Origin: a virus
Lineage: Duplodnaviria; Caudoviricetes
Direction: 5' to 3' (one strand)
Virus record (IMG/VR): IMGVR_UViG_3300024325_000006
Span: 1-41,577 of that record
Length of the DNA: 41,577 nucleotides
This document shows, piece after piece, positions 1 to 41,577 of the stretch (its first letter is position 1; the number at the start of each line of letters is the position of its first letter). The notes beneath the pieces are model-generated. The model had not been told where the DNA came from. It saw only the letters and a program-made list of their open reading frames with translations, and ran no database searches. Both the position numbers and the translations under genes were made by a program.

Positions 1-131
1 CACGGTCAGGGTCAGGGTCACGGTCACGGTCATGGTCACGGTCATGGTCATGGTCAGGGTCAGGGTCAGGGTCAGGGTCAGGGTCACGGTCAGGGTCAGG
101 GTCACGGTCATGGTCATGGTCAGGGTCAGGG
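1..131 (+). repeat. GGTCA[G/C/T] hexamer array (22 variable positions); 3' part of the first Ser-X peptide gene, which ends GVY* at 138-140
   Basis: Perfect 6-bp periodicity, TCA-NGG codons, then GTT TAT TAA as in the paralog at 163-420. Confidence 0.95.
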
Positions 132-162
132 GTTTATTAAACATGTGTGAAAGTAGGCCGAT

Positions 163-427: not shown

Positions 428-574
428 ATGGACAAAGAAAAAGATCAAACAATGGTGCGTATACCCTCTGAGCTTATTCAGAGGGTGCGTATCCTTGCAA
501 ATAGGGAGAAGCGTACAGTGCCTCGACAGGTGGAGTATTTGTTGAGGAAGGCGCTGGAGGAGGAGAATGTTTAA
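428..574 (+). CDS. Arc/ribbon-helix-helix-like DNA-binding protein, 48 aa (not in ORF track)
   Basis: Hand translation MDKEKDQTMVRIPSELIQRVRILANREKRTVPRQVEYLLRKALEEENV; strand-helix-helix pattern typical of Arc. Confidence 0.7.
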   Translation: MDKEKDQTMVRIPSELIQRVRILANREKRTVPRQVEYLLRKALEEENV

Positions 575-862: not shown

Positions 863-990
863 GTAGAGCGTAAAACGGGGAGGCGTGTGTGAATATCCGG
901 GAATAGCACACAATGTAGGCGAAGACCCTACCCTCGCGACCATAACGCGGGGTGGCGCAAAATACAGACGCACCTCCGTTTGCTCTCTAC
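863..990 (+). ncRNA. Circularly permuted tRNA-like RNA (YrlA/Y-RNA-like topology)
   Basis: TATAAT 850-855; T arm 915-931; acceptor 932-938/946-952 closed by ACCATAA; D arm 955-971; closing stems 879-883/973-977 and 863-868/985-990. Confidence 0.65.
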
Positions 991-1008
991 CACTAATTTG
1001 AAGTGTAA

Positions 1009-2613
1009 ATGACCCCCCAAGAAATCCAAACCCTGATACAATCCAGTCCTCTCGCCTGGATTGTATTCAACAAAATGGTCAACGAAAACCAAGAGGCCAT
1101 TGAGTTTGACAACCACCGTTTTATGATCGACTTCTATGCCGATGATTCAGACGATATCGTAAGCAAGAAGTCAGCTCAGGTGGGTTTTAGCGTTGCAGCC
1201 ATCATAAAGAGCCTACACCGCGCTAAGTTCATGAAAGACAACATCATATACGTTTTACCCACTAAAGACGTGGTAGATGGCTTTGTAGTGCCTAAGGTGA
1301 ACCCCTTGATTAGTTCTAACCCTTCGATACACAGTATTGTCAGTGATGATTCTAAGTCGCTTAAGAAAGTCGGTGATCGCTTCCTGTACTTCCGTGGGGG
1401 CTTTAACGATCGGCAAGCCATTAATATCTCCGGTGACATTCTGGTGATTGATGAGTATGACCGTATGCCCGAGATGACTGTGGTCAATACCTTTGACAGT
1501 CGTTTGCAGGCTTCTAAGCATCCCAAGCGTTGGCGTTTCTCTAACCCGAGCCAGATAGGCTTTGGTGTAGATGGACTTTACAATGATTCTAACCAGCTGC
1601 ACTGGTTCGTGAAGTGTTCACACTGTGGCCATGAGTGGTATATGGACTGGACGAAGGATGACCAGAGCCATTACGTAGACAGAGAGCGCAAGATTTACGC
1701 TTGTGGCAAGTGTGACAAAGAGATCACGGACAATGATCGTCGTATGGGAAGATGGATAGCCAAGTACCCGAGCCGTACGAGGCATGGCTATTGGTTCTCC
1801 CAGATGATGGCCCCTTGGGTTAGTGCGCGCCGCATCATTGAACAGTACGAGGAGAGCAATGTTGAGTTCTTCCATAACTTTGTGCTTGGGAAAGCGTATA
1901 CACCTAAGGACATGGATGTCAGTCGTGAGGCCATTCTACGGGCTTGTGCTCCAAGCAACATTCAGCGCACACAAGTAGCTATTGGTGTGGACCAGGATGC
2001 CAGCGGCCAGTACTATGTGTGCATGACCCCAGACGGTATCTTCGACCATGGATATGTTGATAGCTGGGACAAGATAGAGCACCTTAAGCTTATGTACAAT
2101 GCAGTAGTGGTGTGTGACCCTAACCCCTATCCGACTATGCCCAAACAGATGGCCAATAAGTATAGCGACTGGTATCTGTGTTACTTCAAGGTATTGGATA
2201 GCCTCTCGCCCATTCAGTGGAAGAACCAGGAACAGATTGTATATGCCGACCGCACCCGTATCTTAGATACCAGAGCTAATGAGATCACTCAAGCTCGCAT
2301 GCTATACCGTGAGCGGCCTTACCAGCTGGAGGACATCATCACCCACTGGAAGAATTTGTATCGAACGACTGAAGAGAAAGAAGACGGTAAGGTGCGTAGT
2401 ATCTGGATCAAGGTGGAAGACCGGCAGTCTGATTATCCCTTTGCCGAAGTATATGCCCGTATAGGCCTTACGCAGCTTCTGGGAGGCGGTGGTACGCTCC
2501 TGGAGCCTGAGCAAGGTCCTGGGCCTAAGATGACGAATGTATCAACTGATGGCAACAAGCTTAGTGTGGATTTTGGTGGTATACTAAAGGATACTTATGA
2601 CGAAATGCAGTGA
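1009..2613 (+). CDS. terL: Terminase large subunit, lambda GpA-like
   Basis: KSAQVGFS Walker A variant, LVIDEYD Walker B, CSHC/CGKC zinc motif, IGVD nuclease motif; precedes portal. Confidence 0.92.
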   Translation: MTPQEIQTLIQSSPLAWIVFNKMVNENQEAIEFDNHRFMIDFYADDSDDIVSKKSAQVGFSVAAIIKSLHRAKFMKDNIIYVLPTKDVVDGFVVPKVNPLISSNPSIHSIVSDDSKSLKKVGDRFLYFRGGFNDRQAINISGDILVIDEYDRMPEMTVVNTFDSRLQASKHPKRWRFSNPSQIGFGVDGLYNDSNQLHWFVKCSHCGHEWYMDWTKDDQSHYVDRERKIYACGKCDKEITDNDRRMGRWIAKYPSRTRHGYWFSQMMAPWVSARRIIEQYEESNVEFFHNFVLGKAYTPKDMDVSREAILRACAPSNIQRTQVAIGVDQDASGQYYVCMTPDGIFDHGYVDSWDKIEHLKLMYNAVVVCDPNPYPTMPKQMANKYSDWYLCYFKVLDSLSPIQWKNQEQIVYADRTRILDTRANEITQARMLYRERPYQLEDIITHWKNLYRTTEEKEDGKVRSIWIKVEDRQSDYPFAEVYARIGLTQLLGGGGTLLEPEQGPGPKMTNVSTDGNKLSVDFGGILKDTYDEMQ

Positions 2614-3009: not shown

Positions 3010-5139
3010 ATGAACCCCACCAATCCATATAGCCAGAAGCAGAACGTTTTAGAAGAATCTTTTACCGAATTGCATACAGATGCCAAAGACTTTGAAGAGC
3101 TTAGCCTCAGCATGTCCGATGATGATTTGGACAAGATGCTTATTACCTCGCTCGAGACAGATCGTGATCACTGGAACAGGAAGCCCTGGAATCTTCAGGA
3201 GACTGATGTGGTCAACACGGCATTTTTATTGGGGGACCAGATTAATGATAGAGAGTATTTGGCAGGCGAGACAAGGTATCAGGATAATCGCTTGTATAGT
3301 TCAACGCGTGCAATCCTAAGCTATGCGACCGGCCAATTGGCTAAACCGGATATCACACCCAGTCGTGGAGACGAGATATACCTTAAAGGTGCTCGTGACA
3401 TTGGATCGGCTTTATACCAAGATTCAGCTGATGATCATGTAGATTTGCAAGTGCGTGCTGCAGTGCTGAATCTTATTAGCCGTAAACGAGCCTATATTAA
3501 GCTTCGCTATGATCCAAATATTAGTGCCTTTGGCAAGGTGATTAGTGAGGTATGTAATCCTGAGGACATTATACTGGGGCGTTACTCGGCTTACATGAAA
3601 AATCCAGAGAAGATCTATCATCGGCTACGCTGCTCTGTCGGTGAACTTTGTGCCCGCTTCCCCGATAAAGAGGCACAGATTAAAGATGCTTTCTCAGTAC
3701 GTCGTGGTGTATATACGCAAGTCTCTAAGATGATCGAGTACTTTGAATGCTGGTTCACTTACACCGGCGATGATCTAAAGCCCAAAGAAGGTGTTTGTTG
3801 GTTCATATACGAGAAACATTTGATCCTTGATAAGATGCCGAATCCCAATTGGATCTATCTCAAGACGCGGAAGAAGGAAATGGAGGCAAATGTTACTCTT
3901 ATACCTCCAAAGCCATTCGTAATCTTTAACCATATTAATACTGGGCATTCAGCTATTGATGAAACCTGTTTGATTGAGCAGGCGTTACCACTACAGCGTA
4001 TGCTTAACAAGCGTTTGCGACAGATTGGCGAGAACGCTGATTATGTAAACGGCCGTTGGGTATATTCCAAGAAGGCTTTTAGTCAAGAAGATGCACGAGG
4101 ACTCATCAATAAGGGTGCGCGGACGCTTGGGGGTGTGGATCGTGAGGATGTGACTGGCGCTCTTATGAATGTGGCCCCCAACCAATTGGGTCAGTGGGTA
4201 GAGAATACCGTATTTGACTACCGTAATGAGATCGACGGGCTAATGGGTACCCCCTCCCAATTTAAGGGTTCTGATCCGACAACTCATGACACCCTTGGCC
4301 GCGATCTTCTTCTTAAGCAACAAGCTGGCGCTTTACAAGATGATCTTGTGCGTGCGGTATCGGTTGCCATGAGTCATTACTATGAGATTAAGCTCCAGCT
4401 TTGGCGCGTGAATTATACCGATGACTATTGGTTCCAGACTAAGGGTGGAGATGGTAAGTACGAGTTTATCTTGATTAATGGTGATAGGATTGACACGAAT
4501 GTTAAGGTGGGCGTGCAGGTTGATAGTACATTGCCTCTTGATAAAGCAAGCATCCGCCAGACCGCTATGGACTTGGCAAATCAGAATAAGATCGATTACA
4601 AAACTCTCATGGAAGATCTCGGCTTGCCTAATCCTGATGTTCGGGCCGAGCGTTACCTCAAGAGTGTTATTGACCCAATCAACTTCTTGAAATCCGTGGA
4701 AGTGGGTCAGATTAATGCTGAGGCTGAGTCCGATATTCAATTACTCATCATGAACAAGACTCCGGAAGAACGTGACAACTACGATGAGAATTACTTCAAC
4801 TACTACAATAAGGTTCTAGCTAGTAACCGTTTCCAGAAACTGCAAGGTACAGATCCACAGGCTGCACAGCGTGTCACAATGTTCTTGGCTGCAATCCAAC
4901 ACACTATGATGCAGTCACTTAACATCTCTGAGTCACTTATGGATCAAGCTGGCATTGTTAATGACCCAATGCCGATGCCCATCCCGAAGACTAGTATACG
5001 CATTCAAGGACAACTTGATCCTAACCAGAGTGCTCAAATGGCTGGGGTCCAACCTGATGCACAGCCACCAAATGTCCCTGGTCCAGCAAATCCCCAGAGT
5101 ACATCCGCACCTGCTCCTCAAGCTCCGCCAGTTAAATAG
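3010..5139 (+). CDS. Portal protein (P22-like size)
   Basis: 709 aa, follows terL, helical with Pro/Gln-rich tail. Confidence 0.8.
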   Translation: MNPTNPYSQKQNVLEESFTELHTDAKDFEELSLSMSDDDLDKMLITSLETDRDHWNRKPWNLQETDVVNTAFLLGDQINDREYLAGETRYQDNRLYSSTRAILSYATGQLAKPDITPSRGDEIYLKGARDIGSALYQDSADDHVDLQVRAAVLNLISRKRAYIKLRYDPNISAFGKVISEVCNPEDIILGRYSAYMKNPEKIYHRLRCSVGELCARFPDKEAQIKDAFSVRRGVYTQVSKMIEYFECWFTYTGDDLKPKEGVCWFIYEKHLILDKMPNPNWIYLKTRKKEMEANVTLIPPKPFVIFNHINTGHSAIDETCLIEQALPLQRMLNKRLRQIGENADYVNGRWVYSKKAFSQEDARGLINKGARTLGGVDREDVTGALMNVAPNQLGQWVENTVFDYRNEIDGLMGTPSQFKGSDPTTHDTLGRDLLLKQQAGALQDDLVRAVSVAMSHYYEIKLQLWRVNYTDDYWFQTKGGDGKYEFILINGDRIDTNVKVGVQVDSTLPLDKASIRQTAMDLANQNKIDYKTLMEDLGLPNPDVRAERYLKSVIDPINFLKSVEVGQINAEAESDIQLLIMNKTPEERDNYDENYFNYYNKVLASNRFQKLQGTDPQAAQRVTMFLAAIQHTMMQSLNISESLMDQAGIVNDPMPMPIPKTSIRIQGQLDPNQSAQMAGVQPDAQPPNVPGPANPQSTSAPAPQAPPVK

Positions 5140-5182
5140 GGTTGTGGTATAATAAACAGATCATACTGACAAAGGAGTACTA

Positions 5183-6133
5183 ATGGCTGAAGATAAACCA
5201 GCACCCACAGAGGAGCAAATCAAGGCAGCTAATGAAGCCCAAGAAGCTAAATGGCAAGGTGATTTTAAAGAGGAAGACCTGACAATTCCTTACAAACGGG
5301 AGAACAAGAGTGAATCTGCGAAGGGAAGCAAAGATTCTACTGGGAACAATACTGGAGGAGGTGGTGATTCAAACGAAGAAGATGAAGAAGAGGATAACTC
5401 GCCTAAGGAAGTCGAACAATACTCAGAACCCGCACCAGCCCTGACCGTTGAAGATCCTGGAGATTATAAACCTGCTGATTACTCTTTTGAGGTGACACTT
5501 AAAGATGGCAAGACGGTCAAAGTTACAACACCCGAAGAAGCAGAAAAGTTGGCAGATGATCCTGATAACTTCGAAACCCCCAAGCAACTCATGGACTTCA
5601 TCAACAAGCAGAACAAGATGCAACGTAATCTTGACAGGGATTATGAGAAGTGGGAATCACAGCACAAAACATTTACTGAACAGCTCAAAACTGAAACAGA
5701 TAGGCGAAAAACGGTTGATAACTATGTTGCCGAGTTCCAGTATTTAGTTGATAAAGGTAAATTACCGCCAGTTGCTAAGGAATATCTGGATGCCGATTGG
5801 TCTGATCCTGAAGTTGCTAAACAACCCGGGGTTAAAGAGCAAATGGCCCTCCTTAACTATATGATTAAGGAAAATAATGTACGAACTAAAGCTAATATAA
5901 AGCCTCTTACCTCAGTTGTGGATGCCTATTACGCTTGGAAAGAAGATGAAGGCGAACAAGAGAAGGCGAAAGAGGCCGAAGAGGCTAAGAAGGCCGCTGG
6001 CGAAGCTCGCAAGACTGCAAGTGCTCGTGTGGCTGGCGTATCTCCCGCGCAACAGGGTAGTTATGTACCTAAGGGTATCGCCGTTGGTAATCCCAACGTG
6101 TTTAAACGCGGTGCTGCCGTTTGGGATGACTAA
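5183..6133 (+). CDS. Capsid scaffolding protein
   Basis: Acidic, coiled-coil, between portal and capsid; TGGTATAAT upstream and AAAGGAG RBS. Confidence 0.65.
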   Translation: MAEDKPAPTEEQIKAANEAQEAKWQGDFKEEDLTIPYKRENKSESAKGSKDSTGNNTGGGGDSNEEDEEEDNSPKEVEQYSEPAPALTVEDPGDYKPADYSFEVTLKDGKTVKVTTPEEAEKLADDPDNFETPKQLMDFINKQNKMQRNLDRDYEKWESQHKTFTEQLKTETDRRKTVDNYVAEFQYLVDKGKLPPVAKEYLDADWSDPEVAKQPGVKEQMALLNYMIKENNVRTKANIKPLTSVVDAYYAWKEDEGEQEKAKEAEEAKKAAGEARKTASARVAGVSPAQQGSYVPKGIAVGNPNVFKRGAAVWDD

Positions 6134-33593: not shown

Positions 33594-33738
33594 ACATCAA
33601 CTATCTACGCTATATTCTGGATGAGTTGACCATCACGAAATAAAAACACCACCTACGTGCCATTCGGCATTTCAGTGGTTCATATGTATTATACCATGGG
33701 TCATAGAAGTTTTTGAGTTGTATTCTGGAGCCTAACTA

Positions 33739-33800
33739 TTGACTTAAAGACCGTCTTTTGCTACCATGAGGTAGACAGCTAATCAAAGGAGCAAGTCATG
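33739..33800 (+). promoter_or_regulatory. Sigma70 promoter with palindromic operator + CTAATCAAAGGAG leader
   Basis: TTGACT-17-TACCAT; AAAGACCGTCTTT in the spacer. Confidence 0.7.
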
Positions 33801-40678: not shown

Positions 40679-41038
40679 ATGCCATTTCCTAACCCCGATA
40701 CACAATTTAAACCAGGTCAATCTGGTAACCTCAATGGTAAGCCTAAGGGCACGAAACATCTCTCCACTTGGATACAGGAACTCGTAAACGATGAAGAATT
40801 TGTTACTGAGAACGTCAATGGACAGGAGTACAAGGGTGCTCCCATTGGAGCGATAATTAAAGTGGCGATTAAAAAATCGTTGGACGGTGATAGTAAATGG
40901 GCTGAATGGCTTGGTAAGCATGGATACGGCATAAAGACTGAAACCGACATCACAACCAAAGGCGAAGCCCTAAACACCTCCCCCGATCCCGCAACAGCTG
41001 CCGCCTTCGCCGACTATCTCAAAGGTAAGAAGCAATGA
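40679..41038 (+). CDS. terS: Terminase small subunit
   Basis: TQFKPGQSGNLNGKPKG N-terminal motif and DITTKGE end; upstream of terL on the circular map. Confidence 0.75.
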   Translation: MPFPNPDTQFKPGQSGNLNGKPKGTKHLSTWIQELVNDEEFVTENVNGQEYKGAPIGAIIKVAIKKSLDGDSKWAEWLGKHGYGIKTETDITTKGEALNTSPDPATAAAFADYLKGKKQ

Positions 41039-41087: not shown

Positions 41088-41147
41088 TTGACCCTGGTGT
41101 TACATTTTGCTACACTATGTATACAAACTAATTAAGGAGCTCACATG
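41088..41147 (+). promoter_or_regulatory. Sigma70 promoter + variant leader AACTAATTAAGGAG
   Basis: TTGACC-17-TACACT with TG extension. Confidence 0.7.
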
Positions 41148-41405
41148 AGTAAAGTCCTAGAAGAAGGCAAAAAGGTATTTATCAGAACCGTAACCTACCA
41201 CATGGTTGGTAAGATCGAAGCTATCAAAGATGGCATGATTGAGCTTTCTGAAGCTTCATGGATCGCAGACAGCGGTCGCTTCTCGAATGCTCTCAAAGAA
41301 GGTACTTTAAGCGAAGTAGAACCCGTTGGTGATGCTTGTGTAAGCCTAGGCGCTCTTGTTGACGCTTTCCCTTGGACGCACGAACTTCCCACTAAGCAGA
41401 AATAG
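41145..41405 (+). CDS. Sm/SH3-like small beta-barrel protein
   Basis: KKVFIRT..YHMVGKIEAIKDGMIELSEA resembles the Sm1 motif. Confidence 0.55.
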   Translation: MSKVLEEGKKVFIRTVTYHMVGKIEAIKDGMIELSEASWIADSGRFSNALKEGTLSEVEPVGDACVSLGALVDAFPWTHELPTKQK

Positions 41406-41413
41406 GTAGCTGT

Positions 41414-41577
41414 ATGACCGCAGCAATCTTAGCTAACCCCAATACGCTTTGGTCATGGTCATGGTCACGGTCAGGGTCAGGGTCAGGGTCAGGGTCAGGG
41501 TCACGGTCAGGGTCACGGTCATGGTCATGGTCAGGGTCACGGTCAGGGTCAGGGTCACGGTCAGGGTCATGGTCAGG
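41414..41577 (+). CDS. 5' part of leader + (Ser-[Gly/Arg/Trp])n peptide, probably continuing at 1-140
   Basis: [12 protein letters not shown] then [10 protein letters not shown]... to the window end (array from 41450). Confidence 0.7.

What the first reader, a model, noticed from the sequence alone, without database searches (positions are those of the whole stretch)
41088..41577. Sm-like protein + tandem leader-(Ser-X)n peptide operon between terS and terL
Seen: own promoter, an 86-aa Sm1-motif-like ORF, then two paralogous peptides (41414 to 140 across the junction; 163-420). They have related 12-aa leaders (M-x-AA-I/L-L-xx-P-xx-L/I-W), strictly alternating Ser with only Gly, Arg or Trp, and a GVY end. 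An Arc-like gene and the tRNA-like RNA follow. Leader conservation at protein level argues the repeats are translated. Inference: the leader may dock the peptides on the Sm-like partner. RS/WS/GS tracts recall RNA-binding, condensate- or amyloid-forming low-complexity domains, and may relate to the many RNAs of this genome or to anti-defence.
Basis: partly seen in the sequence, partly recalled or inferred. Interest (0 to 1): 0.82.

Follow-up and report, generated by a model that had tools for sequence, protein, structure and literature searches.

The report
Phage Sm-fold protein with Ser-X microproteins
An uncultured phage carries a gene for a small protein predicted to have the Sm/Hfq fold, followed by two tiny genes for positively charged chains in which serine alternates with arginine, tryptophan or glycine; this pair recurs in many uncultured phages, the Sm protein likely binds the chains and controls their clumping into a condensate or fibre, and the pair's function is untested.

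Summary
Real and widespread. The 86-aa ORF (41145-41405) folds confidently as Sm/LSm (pLDDT 91; Foldseek E 5e-4; Z 9.0) but lacks the usual uridine-pocket residues. It heads a family of about 1,800 clusters at 50% identity. A Ser-X tract lies next to it in 90 of 96 homolog loci, and 44 of 49 fully flanked tracts found by DNA pattern alone have it beside them. The Ser frame is under selection: in a frame-free test 81 of 81 N-GG-xyz repeat units have a Ser codon, all six being used, and starts are coupled to the Sm stop in 59 of 68. Corrections: peptide 1 is out of frame across the literal junction (assembly break); the leader is conserved only in a subset; no tRNA was found. Two sister Sm families pair strictly with acidic (Gly-Tyr/Asp/Ser)n peptides, and two single-genome in-frame fusions exist. 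Best model: the Sm protein binds a sticker-spacer microprotein and controls its self-assembly. Binding is untested because the complex queue was full. I found no paper on it; this scan noted the same module at least eight times before on other DNA.

The parts
41088..41116 (+). sigma-70-like promoter (TTGACC-17-TG-TACACT)
   Evidence: 9 of 12; count not above chance; similar -35/-10 at similar spacing in L001
41134..41139 (+). Shine-Dalgarno AAGGAG of the Sm-fold gene
   Evidence: sequence
41145..41405 (+). 86-aa Sm/LSm-fold protein ('family A'), net charge -3; family-invariant R14 T17 W39 D42 G44 R45 F46 E57 E59 D73 W77 H79 L81 P82
   Evidence: AF2 pLDDT 91; Foldseek 6ppq_G E 5e-4; VIA Z 9.0 to SmAP1; 566 homologs; 1,822 clusters; conservation; 31 synonymous vs 10 non-synonymous codon changes against L001
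41414..41577 (+). Ser-X microprotein 1, 5' part: leader [13 protein letters not shown] plus (Ser-[G/R/W])n, cut by the record end
1..140 (+). Ser-X microprotein 1, 3' part (Ser frame 3-140, ends SGVY-TAA); junction not in frame as assembled
   Evidence: order and spacer homologous to intact L001
163..420 (+). Ser-X microprotein 2, 85 aa, leader MQAALLGSPTVIW, ends SGVY, net +9
   Evidence: AF2 single-sequence model low confidence, pLDDT 53, three beta-strands
428..574 (+). Arc/RHH-like 48-aa gene: neighbour, not a conserved part of the module
40679..41038 (+). upstream flank: putative small terminase (DUF5681)
   Evidence: E 2.8e-11; the terS role is inferred from position
1009..2613 (+). downstream flank: terminase large subunit

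Best explanation
This is a mobile two-part phage module: a conserved protein with a predicted Sm/LSm fold and one or more coupled genes for (Ser-[Arg/Trp/Gly])n microproteins, in which the Sm protein likely binds the microprotein and likely nucleates or controls its self-assembly into a condensate or labile beta-polymer that would sequester host molecules during infection. SHOWN: the fold (as a prediction), the two-way genomic linkage, selection on the Ser frame and on keeping Arg and Trp, near-random and variable order and length, and strict pairing of each Sm family with its own peptide alphabet. INFERRED: (1) the invariant acidic and aromatic residues (D42, E57, E59, D73, W39, W77, with R14 and R45) read Arg/Trp side chains of the repeat body, and the hydrophobic leader may add a beta-strand anchor; (2) the peptide works by composition (aromatic stickers, Gly/Ser spacers, charge), not by sequence; (3) the hexamer unit Ser-codon + NGG is kept by slippage and homogenisation, so one variable base shuffles R/W/G; (4) the benefit to the phage is sequestering or shielding, possibly against host defence.
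For: Linkage: Ser-X tract adjacent in 90 of 96 loci; reverse search 44 of 49 fully flanked tracts, and all 60 hits on the same strand; no other neighbour family in more than 10 of 94 loci. Frame: 81 of 81 N-GG-xyz units carry a Ser codon (TCG 40, AGC 16, TCT 15, TCA 7, AGT 2, TCC 1), and 72 of 81 keep G, T and only one Arg base. Ser-frame start within -8..+25 of the Sm stop in 59 of 68, against 10 and 4 for the other frames. Composition is held while order is not: R and W absent from 0 of 93 bodies (the filter required four S-R or S-W pairs, not both kinds), medians R 0.39, W 0.27, G 0.26; like-with-like neighbours are under-represented (WW 131 vs 170 expected). Cognate pairing: DUF6948 is followed by an acidic Gly-[S/Y/D] peptide in 46 of 47 and by Ser-X in 0; 68 of 68 Gly-X tracts have DUF6948 or a third family upstream. 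The conserved charges are opposite: family A keeps four acidic residues, DUF6948 keeps R, R, R, K. Fusions: L308 385-1044, a DUF6948-type domain with its Gly-X tract in one ORF; L295 6567-7145, a Ser-X tract in frame with a weakly Sm-like domain. Tandem Sm-Sm proteins (P0121, P0153, P0162, P0280) suggest oligomers. Several peptide copies per Sm gene (up to 7 counted) fit a stoichiometric material. LSm domains bound to peptides are among the fold matches (6f9w, LSM14 with a 4E-T peptide).
Against: No expression, assembly or functional data. Each fusion is a single genome and may be a recent frameshift or assembly slip; the L295 domain is only weakly similar (hhalign probability 2%). Orphans exist both ways: G009 has family A with no tract, and G006 (47 kb, rated complete) has three Ser-X ORFs and no detectable family A or DUF6948 gene. 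Loss of invariant Sm residues does not track repeat decay (rho -0.14, p 0.24, n 76). The whole-domain net-charge difference between the families is small (median -1 vs 0, rows not independent). The peptide model is low-confidence.
Confidence: 0.4

Rival explanations
1. Toxin-antidote or host shut-off pair: the Arg/Trp-rich peptide poisons ribosomes, nucleic acids or membranes, and the Sm protein neutralises or times it.
For: Coupled two-gene layout. 58 of 286 homologs carry an N-terminal beta-alpha extension resembling half a ribbon-helix-helix (only sub-threshold hits, DUF7557 E 0.002-0.01). Arg dipeptide repeats PR20 and GR20 inhibit E. coli 70S peptidyl transfer at 44 and 164 nM (PMC9120013, passages).
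Against: The sister modules use acidic Gly-Tyr/Asp peptides, which would not share this target. Peptide genes expand to many copies per Sm gene. G006 carries peptides without a detectable antidote. The same paper found E. coli lysate translation resistant below 5-10 uM.
Confidence: 0.2
2. Decoy substrate: the peptide is a dense array of Ser (or Tyr/Ser/Asp in the sister type) that soaks up a host defence kinase or other modifying enzyme, and the Sm protein presents or protects it.
For: Strict Ser at every second place; copy expansion; accessory and early-gene neighbourhoods. Arg-Ser repeats as kinase substrates is recalled knowledge.
Against: No defence gene or host target identified; the invariant residue in the sister module is Gly, which cannot be modified; the need for Trp is unexplained.
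Confidence: 0.12
3. The functional object is the repeat RNA or DNA (GG every six bases, unstructured, G-quadruplex-prone), bound by an Sm ring; the peptide is a by-product.
For: X codons are NGG in 89% of 2,669, although CGG, AGG and GGG are minor codons in this genome. The tract folds far less than shuffles (-47.9 vs -78.8 +/- 4.9 kcal/mol). The Gly-X tracts also have GG at period 6.
Against: The three bases after GG switch between the disjoint TCN and AGY boxes and are always Ser (81 of 81). Starts and stops bracket the Ser frame. NGG is explained by Trp fixing TGG plus homogenisation of units.
Confidence: 0.1
4. The Sm protein is an Hfq-like RNA chaperone serving phage non-coding RNAs, and the peptide is a detachable RS-like tail that helps it (closest to the first reader's RNA idea).
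For: Best fold matches are Sm/LSm/Hfq. Borg Sm proteins carry tandem-repeat disordered extensions in cis (PMC9879509, passages).
Against: Loop-3 positions 28-30 are variable and Arg at the Sm2 'RG' position occurs in 18% of 149 representatives. The protein is acidic in 81-87% of homologs. No tRNA or Rfam RNA in the window; tRNA in 3 of 60 loci.
Confidence: 0.1

Closest known systems
Sm/LSm/Hfq superfamily (S. pombe Lsm7 6ppq_G; archaeal SmAP1 1loj, 1i8f; peptide-bound LSM14 6f9w)
   Same: Bent five-stranded barrel: Foldseek E 5e-4, VIA Z 9.0, rmsd 2.1 over 67 residues.
   Different: No N-terminal helix in the model; helix inserted at 46-52; conserved C-terminal WxHxLP tail; uridine-pocket and Sm2 Arg positions not conserved; no sequence-level hit to PDB chains or to Pfam LSM/Hfq.
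DUF6948 (Pfam PF22253) phage proteins with downstream (Gly-Tyr/Asp/Ser)n ORFs, and a third family (e.g. Rheinheimera phage Barba9A gp018 + gp017)
   Same: Same layout of a small Sm-like gene coupled to an alternating-dipeptide ORF; structural matches in BFVD (A0A6J5MA76 E 5.9e-4; Barba protein A0A7G9VS44 E 9.7e-4); both module types lie within about 1.5 kb in L081, L088 and L100.
   Different: No PF22253 hit for this protein; profile comparison probability 1.3%; partner peptide is acidic Gly-X rather than basic Ser-X; conserved residues are basic rather than acidic. These families have no described function either.
Eukaryotic SR proteins, Arg-Gly tails of SmD1/SmD3/SmB/LSm4, and [G/S]Y[G/S] low-complexity domains (recalled, from no call)
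   Same: Arg-Ser dipeptides, aromatic stickers with Gly/Ser spacers, association with Sm-fold proteins.
   Different: Here the repeat is a separate microprotein with no RRM, a quarter of the X positions are Trp, and it is phage-encoded; homology is not shown.
Borg Sm ribonucleoproteins with tandem-repeat disordered regions (PMC9879509; passages read)
   Same: Mobile-element Sm protein associated with a fast-evolving DNA tandem repeat.
   Different: Borg repeats are N-terminal and in cis, 4-17 aa units, present in 5-6 of 19 proteins, and the Sm1/Sm2 motifs are intact.
C9ORF72 dipeptide-repeat proteins poly-GR and poly-PR (PMC9120013; passages read)
   Same: Hexanucleotide repeat encoding an Arg-containing dipeptide polymer.
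   Different: Pathological and uniform, with no dedicated partner gene; the phage peptides are mixed R/W/G, have their own start and are under selection.

Membership tests
Sm/LSm/Hfq superfamily | Sm fold (bent five-stranded barrel) | tested here: met
   (predicted model)
Sm/LSm/Hfq superfamily | N-terminal alpha-helix before strand 1 | tested here: not met
   DSSP shows coil at 1-9, the only helix at 46-52; 58 of 286 homologs have a beta-alpha extension further upstream
Sm/LSm/Hfq superfamily | Conserved loop-3 uridine-pocket residues and Sm2 Arg-Gly (motifs recalled) | tested here: not met
   positions 28-30 variable; position 68 Arg in 18%, Leu in this protein
Sm/LSm/Hfq superfamily | Hexa- or heptameric ring | not tested
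   no oligomer model obtained; tandem Sm-Sm proteins hint at oligomers
Sm/LSm/Hfq superfamily | Single-stranded RNA binding | not testable with these tools
   needs an assay
DUF6948 (PF22253) | Profile match over the cut-off | tested here: not met
DUF6948 (PF22253) | Remote homology or shared fold | tested here: inconclusive
   BFVD structural hits E 6e-4 to 4e-3; Atlas score 0.89, 14% of members; hhalign probability 1.3%; one cross-hit E 8e-5
DUF6948 (PF22253) | Downstream (Gly-Tyr/Asp/Ser)n partner (defined here) | tested here: not met
   partner is Ser-X in 90 of 96 loci
Type II toxin-antitoxin systems | Small coupled two-gene operon | tested here: met
Type II toxin-antitoxin systems | DNA-binding autoregulatory antitoxin domain | tested here: inconclusive
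   partial RHH-like extension in 58 of 286, sub-threshold hits only; absent from this protein
Type II toxin-antitoxin systems | Toxicity neutralised by the partner | not testable with these tools
   needs an expression assay
RiPP (leader-core peptide with tailoring enzymes) | Conserved modifying enzyme, protease or transporter beside the precursor | tested here: not met
   no neighbour family in more than 10 of 94 loci within 3 kb
SR proteins | RRM domain joined to the RS domain | tested here: not met
   peptides consist of leader and repeat only; no Pfam hit

The most novel reading that the evidence does not exclude
Phages carry an undescribed class of split systems, 'Sm reader + dipeptide-polymer microprotein'. 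At least three Sm-fold families each read their own alphabet (basic Ser-R/W/G or acidic Gly-Y/D/S) and build condensates or labile amyloid inside the bacterium to shield the phage or trap defences: a viral counterpart of the Sm-plus-RS/RG/GYG chemistry of eukaryotic RNA granules, tuned by a one-base-variable hexamer repeat.
Probability: 0.3. Interest if true: 0.9.

Novelty: categorically new. Interest (0 to 1): 0.72.

Why it matters
About 1,800 protein clusters at 50% identity belong to this Sm family, yet only 1 of 50,697 annotated phage records has it, so it has escaped study. Stand-alone alternating-dipeptide genes are usually dismissed as microsatellites or wrong frames; here they are under clear protein-level selection and have a dedicated partner. 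If the partner reads the polymer, it is a new use of the Sm fold and a minimal two-gene model for how low-complexity sequences are chaperoned or condensed. The sister module exists in cultured phages (Barba9A gp018/gp017), so the class is directly testable.

Tried and rejected
Complex prediction (two Sm copies plus peptide): never ran because the queue was full, so there is no verdict on binding. No hit for the Sm ORF in Pfam (one chance hit, E 0.09), PHROGs, NCBIfam or PDB sequences; none in plasmids. Artefact or neutral microsatellite: rejected. Gly-X and Val-X frames and minus-strand frames: rejected, because the residue varies by locus and starts and stops do not bracket them. Diversity-generating retroelement: rejected, because adenines in TCA/AGC/AGT stay fixed while one other base varies; I did not search for a reverse transcriptase. 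tRNA beside the module: not found; a 17-nt probe found nothing in viral contigs. Bridging the junction with public contigs failed because repeats are skipped. No RNA holder listed. Fusions among 286 retrieved homologs: 1 sequence with a short repeat, probably a wrong-frame extension; no relatives of the L295 fusion. The tree of 95 Sm rows was a quick tree and mostly unresolved, so no co-evolution claim is made. Literature: 'DUF6948' 0 papers; searches listed nothing on this module (listings only). Subscription journals and bioRxiv supplements are not covered.

Full report
OBSERVATION. The window is a whole 41,577-base virus record classed as linear. It breaks inside a hexamer repeat. At the right end lie a promoter-like site (41088-41116; 9 of 12 matches; 3 sites found against 2.0 +/- 1.8 by chance), AAGGAG, the 86-aa ORF 41145-41405, and a peptide ORF that starts at 41414 and runs off the end. 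At the left end lie a Ser-frame tail (3-140), a second peptide ORF (163-420), an Arc/RHH-like ORF (428-574) and terL (1009-2613). All tracts use only TCAGGG, TCACGG and TCATGG. There is no terminal repeat, and a direct join throws peptide 1 out of frame. Locus L001 holds the same Sm-peptide-peptide order intact with a homologous spacer, so 1-140 is very probably the tail of peptide 1. Public contigs do not bridge the repeat. ARAGORN and Rfam find no RNA gene; 865-995 folds with z -2.5.

THE PROTEIN. It has no Pfam, PHROG, NCBIfam or PDB sequence match. It has 566 homologs by word search and 1,822 clusters at 50% identity by profile, but only 1 of 50,697 annotated phage records carries it; that record also has an adjacent Ser-X ORF. 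It is under purifying selection: 31 synonymous against 10 non-synonymous codon changes to L001, and the 6 differences listed for run X4 all fall at third positions (positions checked by hand). The AlphaFold2 model from 82 sequences has pLDDT 91. Its best matches are Sm/LSm proteins (Foldseek E 5e-4; VIA Z 9.0, rmsd 2.1 over 67 residues), and among viral models DUF6948 proteins and a Rheinheimera Barba protein. It departs from canonical Sm: no first helix, a helix at 46-52, a WxHxLP tail, variable loop-3 positions, and Arg at the Sm2 position in 18% of 149 representatives. Instead it conserves R14, T17, W39, D42, G44, R45, F46, E57, E59, D73, W77, H79, L81 and P82 at 85-99%. The canonical motifs used for this comparison are recalled.

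LINKAGE. Of 106 fetched loci I dropped 10 repeats of the same contig. In the remaining 96 a Ser-X tract lies directly downstream (66), upstream (19) or on both sides (5). Of the 6 without, three are cut by contig ends, one has the peptide 600 nt away, one is degenerate and one (L035, G009) has none in its genome. In reverse, a DNA pattern search for TCG-NGG tracts (80 of 122 loci examined) found the Sm gene within 1.2 kb in 44 of 49 fully flanked loci and 16 of 31 cut ones, always on the same strand. One more has it about 2 kb away. G006 has three tracts and no detectable partner; G005's tract is frameshift-ridden. No other neighbour family occurs in more than 10 of 94 loci. Homologs occur in contigs binned to Saccharimonadota, Planctomycetota, Actinomycetota, Acidobacteriota, Bacteroidota and others. 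The host of this phage is unknown.

THE FRAME. After dropping two more near-duplicate loci, a frame-free search found a period-6 tract near the Sm gene in 83 of 94 loci. 81 are N-GG-xyz, and xyz is a Ser codon in all 81, from both codon boxes and all six codons. 72 of 81 keep G, T and only one of A or C at the variable base, that is one unit each for Gly, Trp and Arg. The Ser frame starts within -8..+25 of the Sm stop in 59 of 68 downstream tracts (other frames 10 and 4) and stops within 6 codons of the tract end in 47 of 63 (others 15 of 59 and 19 of 61). Bodies have a median of 50 aa and +0.19 charge per residue; order is close to random, with runs slightly avoided. Paralogs share leaders and differ in body. 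The NxN[TV]L leader occurs in 21 of 114 ORFs across four Ser-codon types; other leaders are short and hydrophobic and a few are nearly absent.

SISTER MODULES. DUF6948 genes (47 distinct, retrieved through one shared motif and so a biased set) are followed by acidic Gly-[S/Y/D/N/F] peptides in 46 and by Ser-X in none; their conserved charged residues are mostly basic. In reverse, 68 of 68 Gly-X tracts with enough upstream DNA (of 80 examined, 120 found) have DUF6948 or a third family upstream. The third family occurs in 119 annotated phage records, 115 of them Rheinheimera Barba phages; in Barba9A, gp018 is followed by a Gly-Y/N/D peptide, gp017. Both module types lie side by side in L081, L088 and L100 without swapping partners. 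Two single-genome in-frame fusions were seen: L308 and L295. Both are weak evidence.

MECHANISM. What both alphabets share is not charge but strict alternation of a small residue with aromatic or charged residues, the pattern of sticker-spacer and beta-polymer-forming sequences (recalled knowledge). Each alphabet travels with an Sm family whose conserved surface charge is opposite to it. I therefore commit to direct binding of the peptide by the Sm protein (about 0.6) and to control of its assembly into a condensate or labile polymer that sequesters host molecules (0.4 overall). Rivals are a toxin-antidote pair (0.2; PR20 and GR20 inhibit 70S ribosomes, PMC9120013, passages), a decoy substrate (0.12), an RNA-level element (0.1) and an Hfq-like chaperone (0.1). 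Against the best model stand the orphans, the lack of correlation between Sm decay and repeat decay, and the absence of any functional data. The complex prediction could not be run because the queue was full.

NOVELTY. No paper on the module appeared in eight searches (listings only). The nearest was the Borg Sm proteins with repeats in cis (PMC9879509, passages). Subscription journals and preprint supplements were not visible. This scan had already noted the same module or its Gly-X sister in eight earlier reports on other genomes. Those are not independent evidence; they agree with what was tested here. As anatomy the system fits no described class, and its function is unshown: interest 0.72.

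Noticed in passing
L295:6567-7145 (G007:C1:34000-42115): Leader plus Ser-X tract in frame with a C-terminal ~95-aa weakly Sm-like domain; an internal SD-like stretch and GTG could also start the domain alone. Candidate natural fusion; no relatives found.
   Followed up: partly
L308:385-1044 and 1159-1455: DUF6948-type domain fused in frame to its Gly-X tract, followed by a duplicated stand-alone Gly-X copy; looks like a recent frameshift fusion.
   Followed up: partly
L088:2358-2621; Rheinheimera phage Barba9A gp018/gp017 (L421): Third Sm-like family (IVVLxRGWV...IRxWGTxxGLGxL) paired with Gly-Tyr/Asp/Asn peptides; present in cultured Barba phages and Rhodobacter phage RcapNL; no Pfam search was run on it.
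   Followed up: partly
G006:C1:29972, 39971, 42142: Three dispersed Ser-X ORFs sharing the leader IHSEPAY in a genome rated complete, with no detectable family A or DUF6948 gene: peptides acting alone, or a still more divergent partner.
   Followed up: partly
window 865-995 (+): Structured non-coding stretch before terL (z -2.5) ending near ACCA; not a tRNA by ARAGORN or Rfam; no match for a 17-nt probe in viral contigs.
   Followed up: partly
P0121, P0153, P0162, P0165, P0280: Proteins with two tandem copies (one partial) of the family A Sm domain.
   Followed up: no
112-115-aa homologs such as P0019, P0040, P0073: N-terminal acidic beta-alpha extension resembling half a ribbon-helix-helix, in 58 of 286 retrieved proteins.
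   Followed up: partly
L001 around 3250-5500: The relative carries the same cassette behind what looks like a different small-terminase gene (label recalled, not searched), suggesting the terS-terL gap is an insertion hot spot.
   Followed up: no
L012, ORF starting about 728 nt after the Sm start: 106-aa ORF resembling the anti-CBASS Acb2 family by recalled motif; not searched.
   Followed up: no
window 33735-33800 (+): A second promoter-like site (TTGAC... then AAGGAG) ahead of a small ORF, similar in layout to the one before the Sm gene.
   Followed up: no
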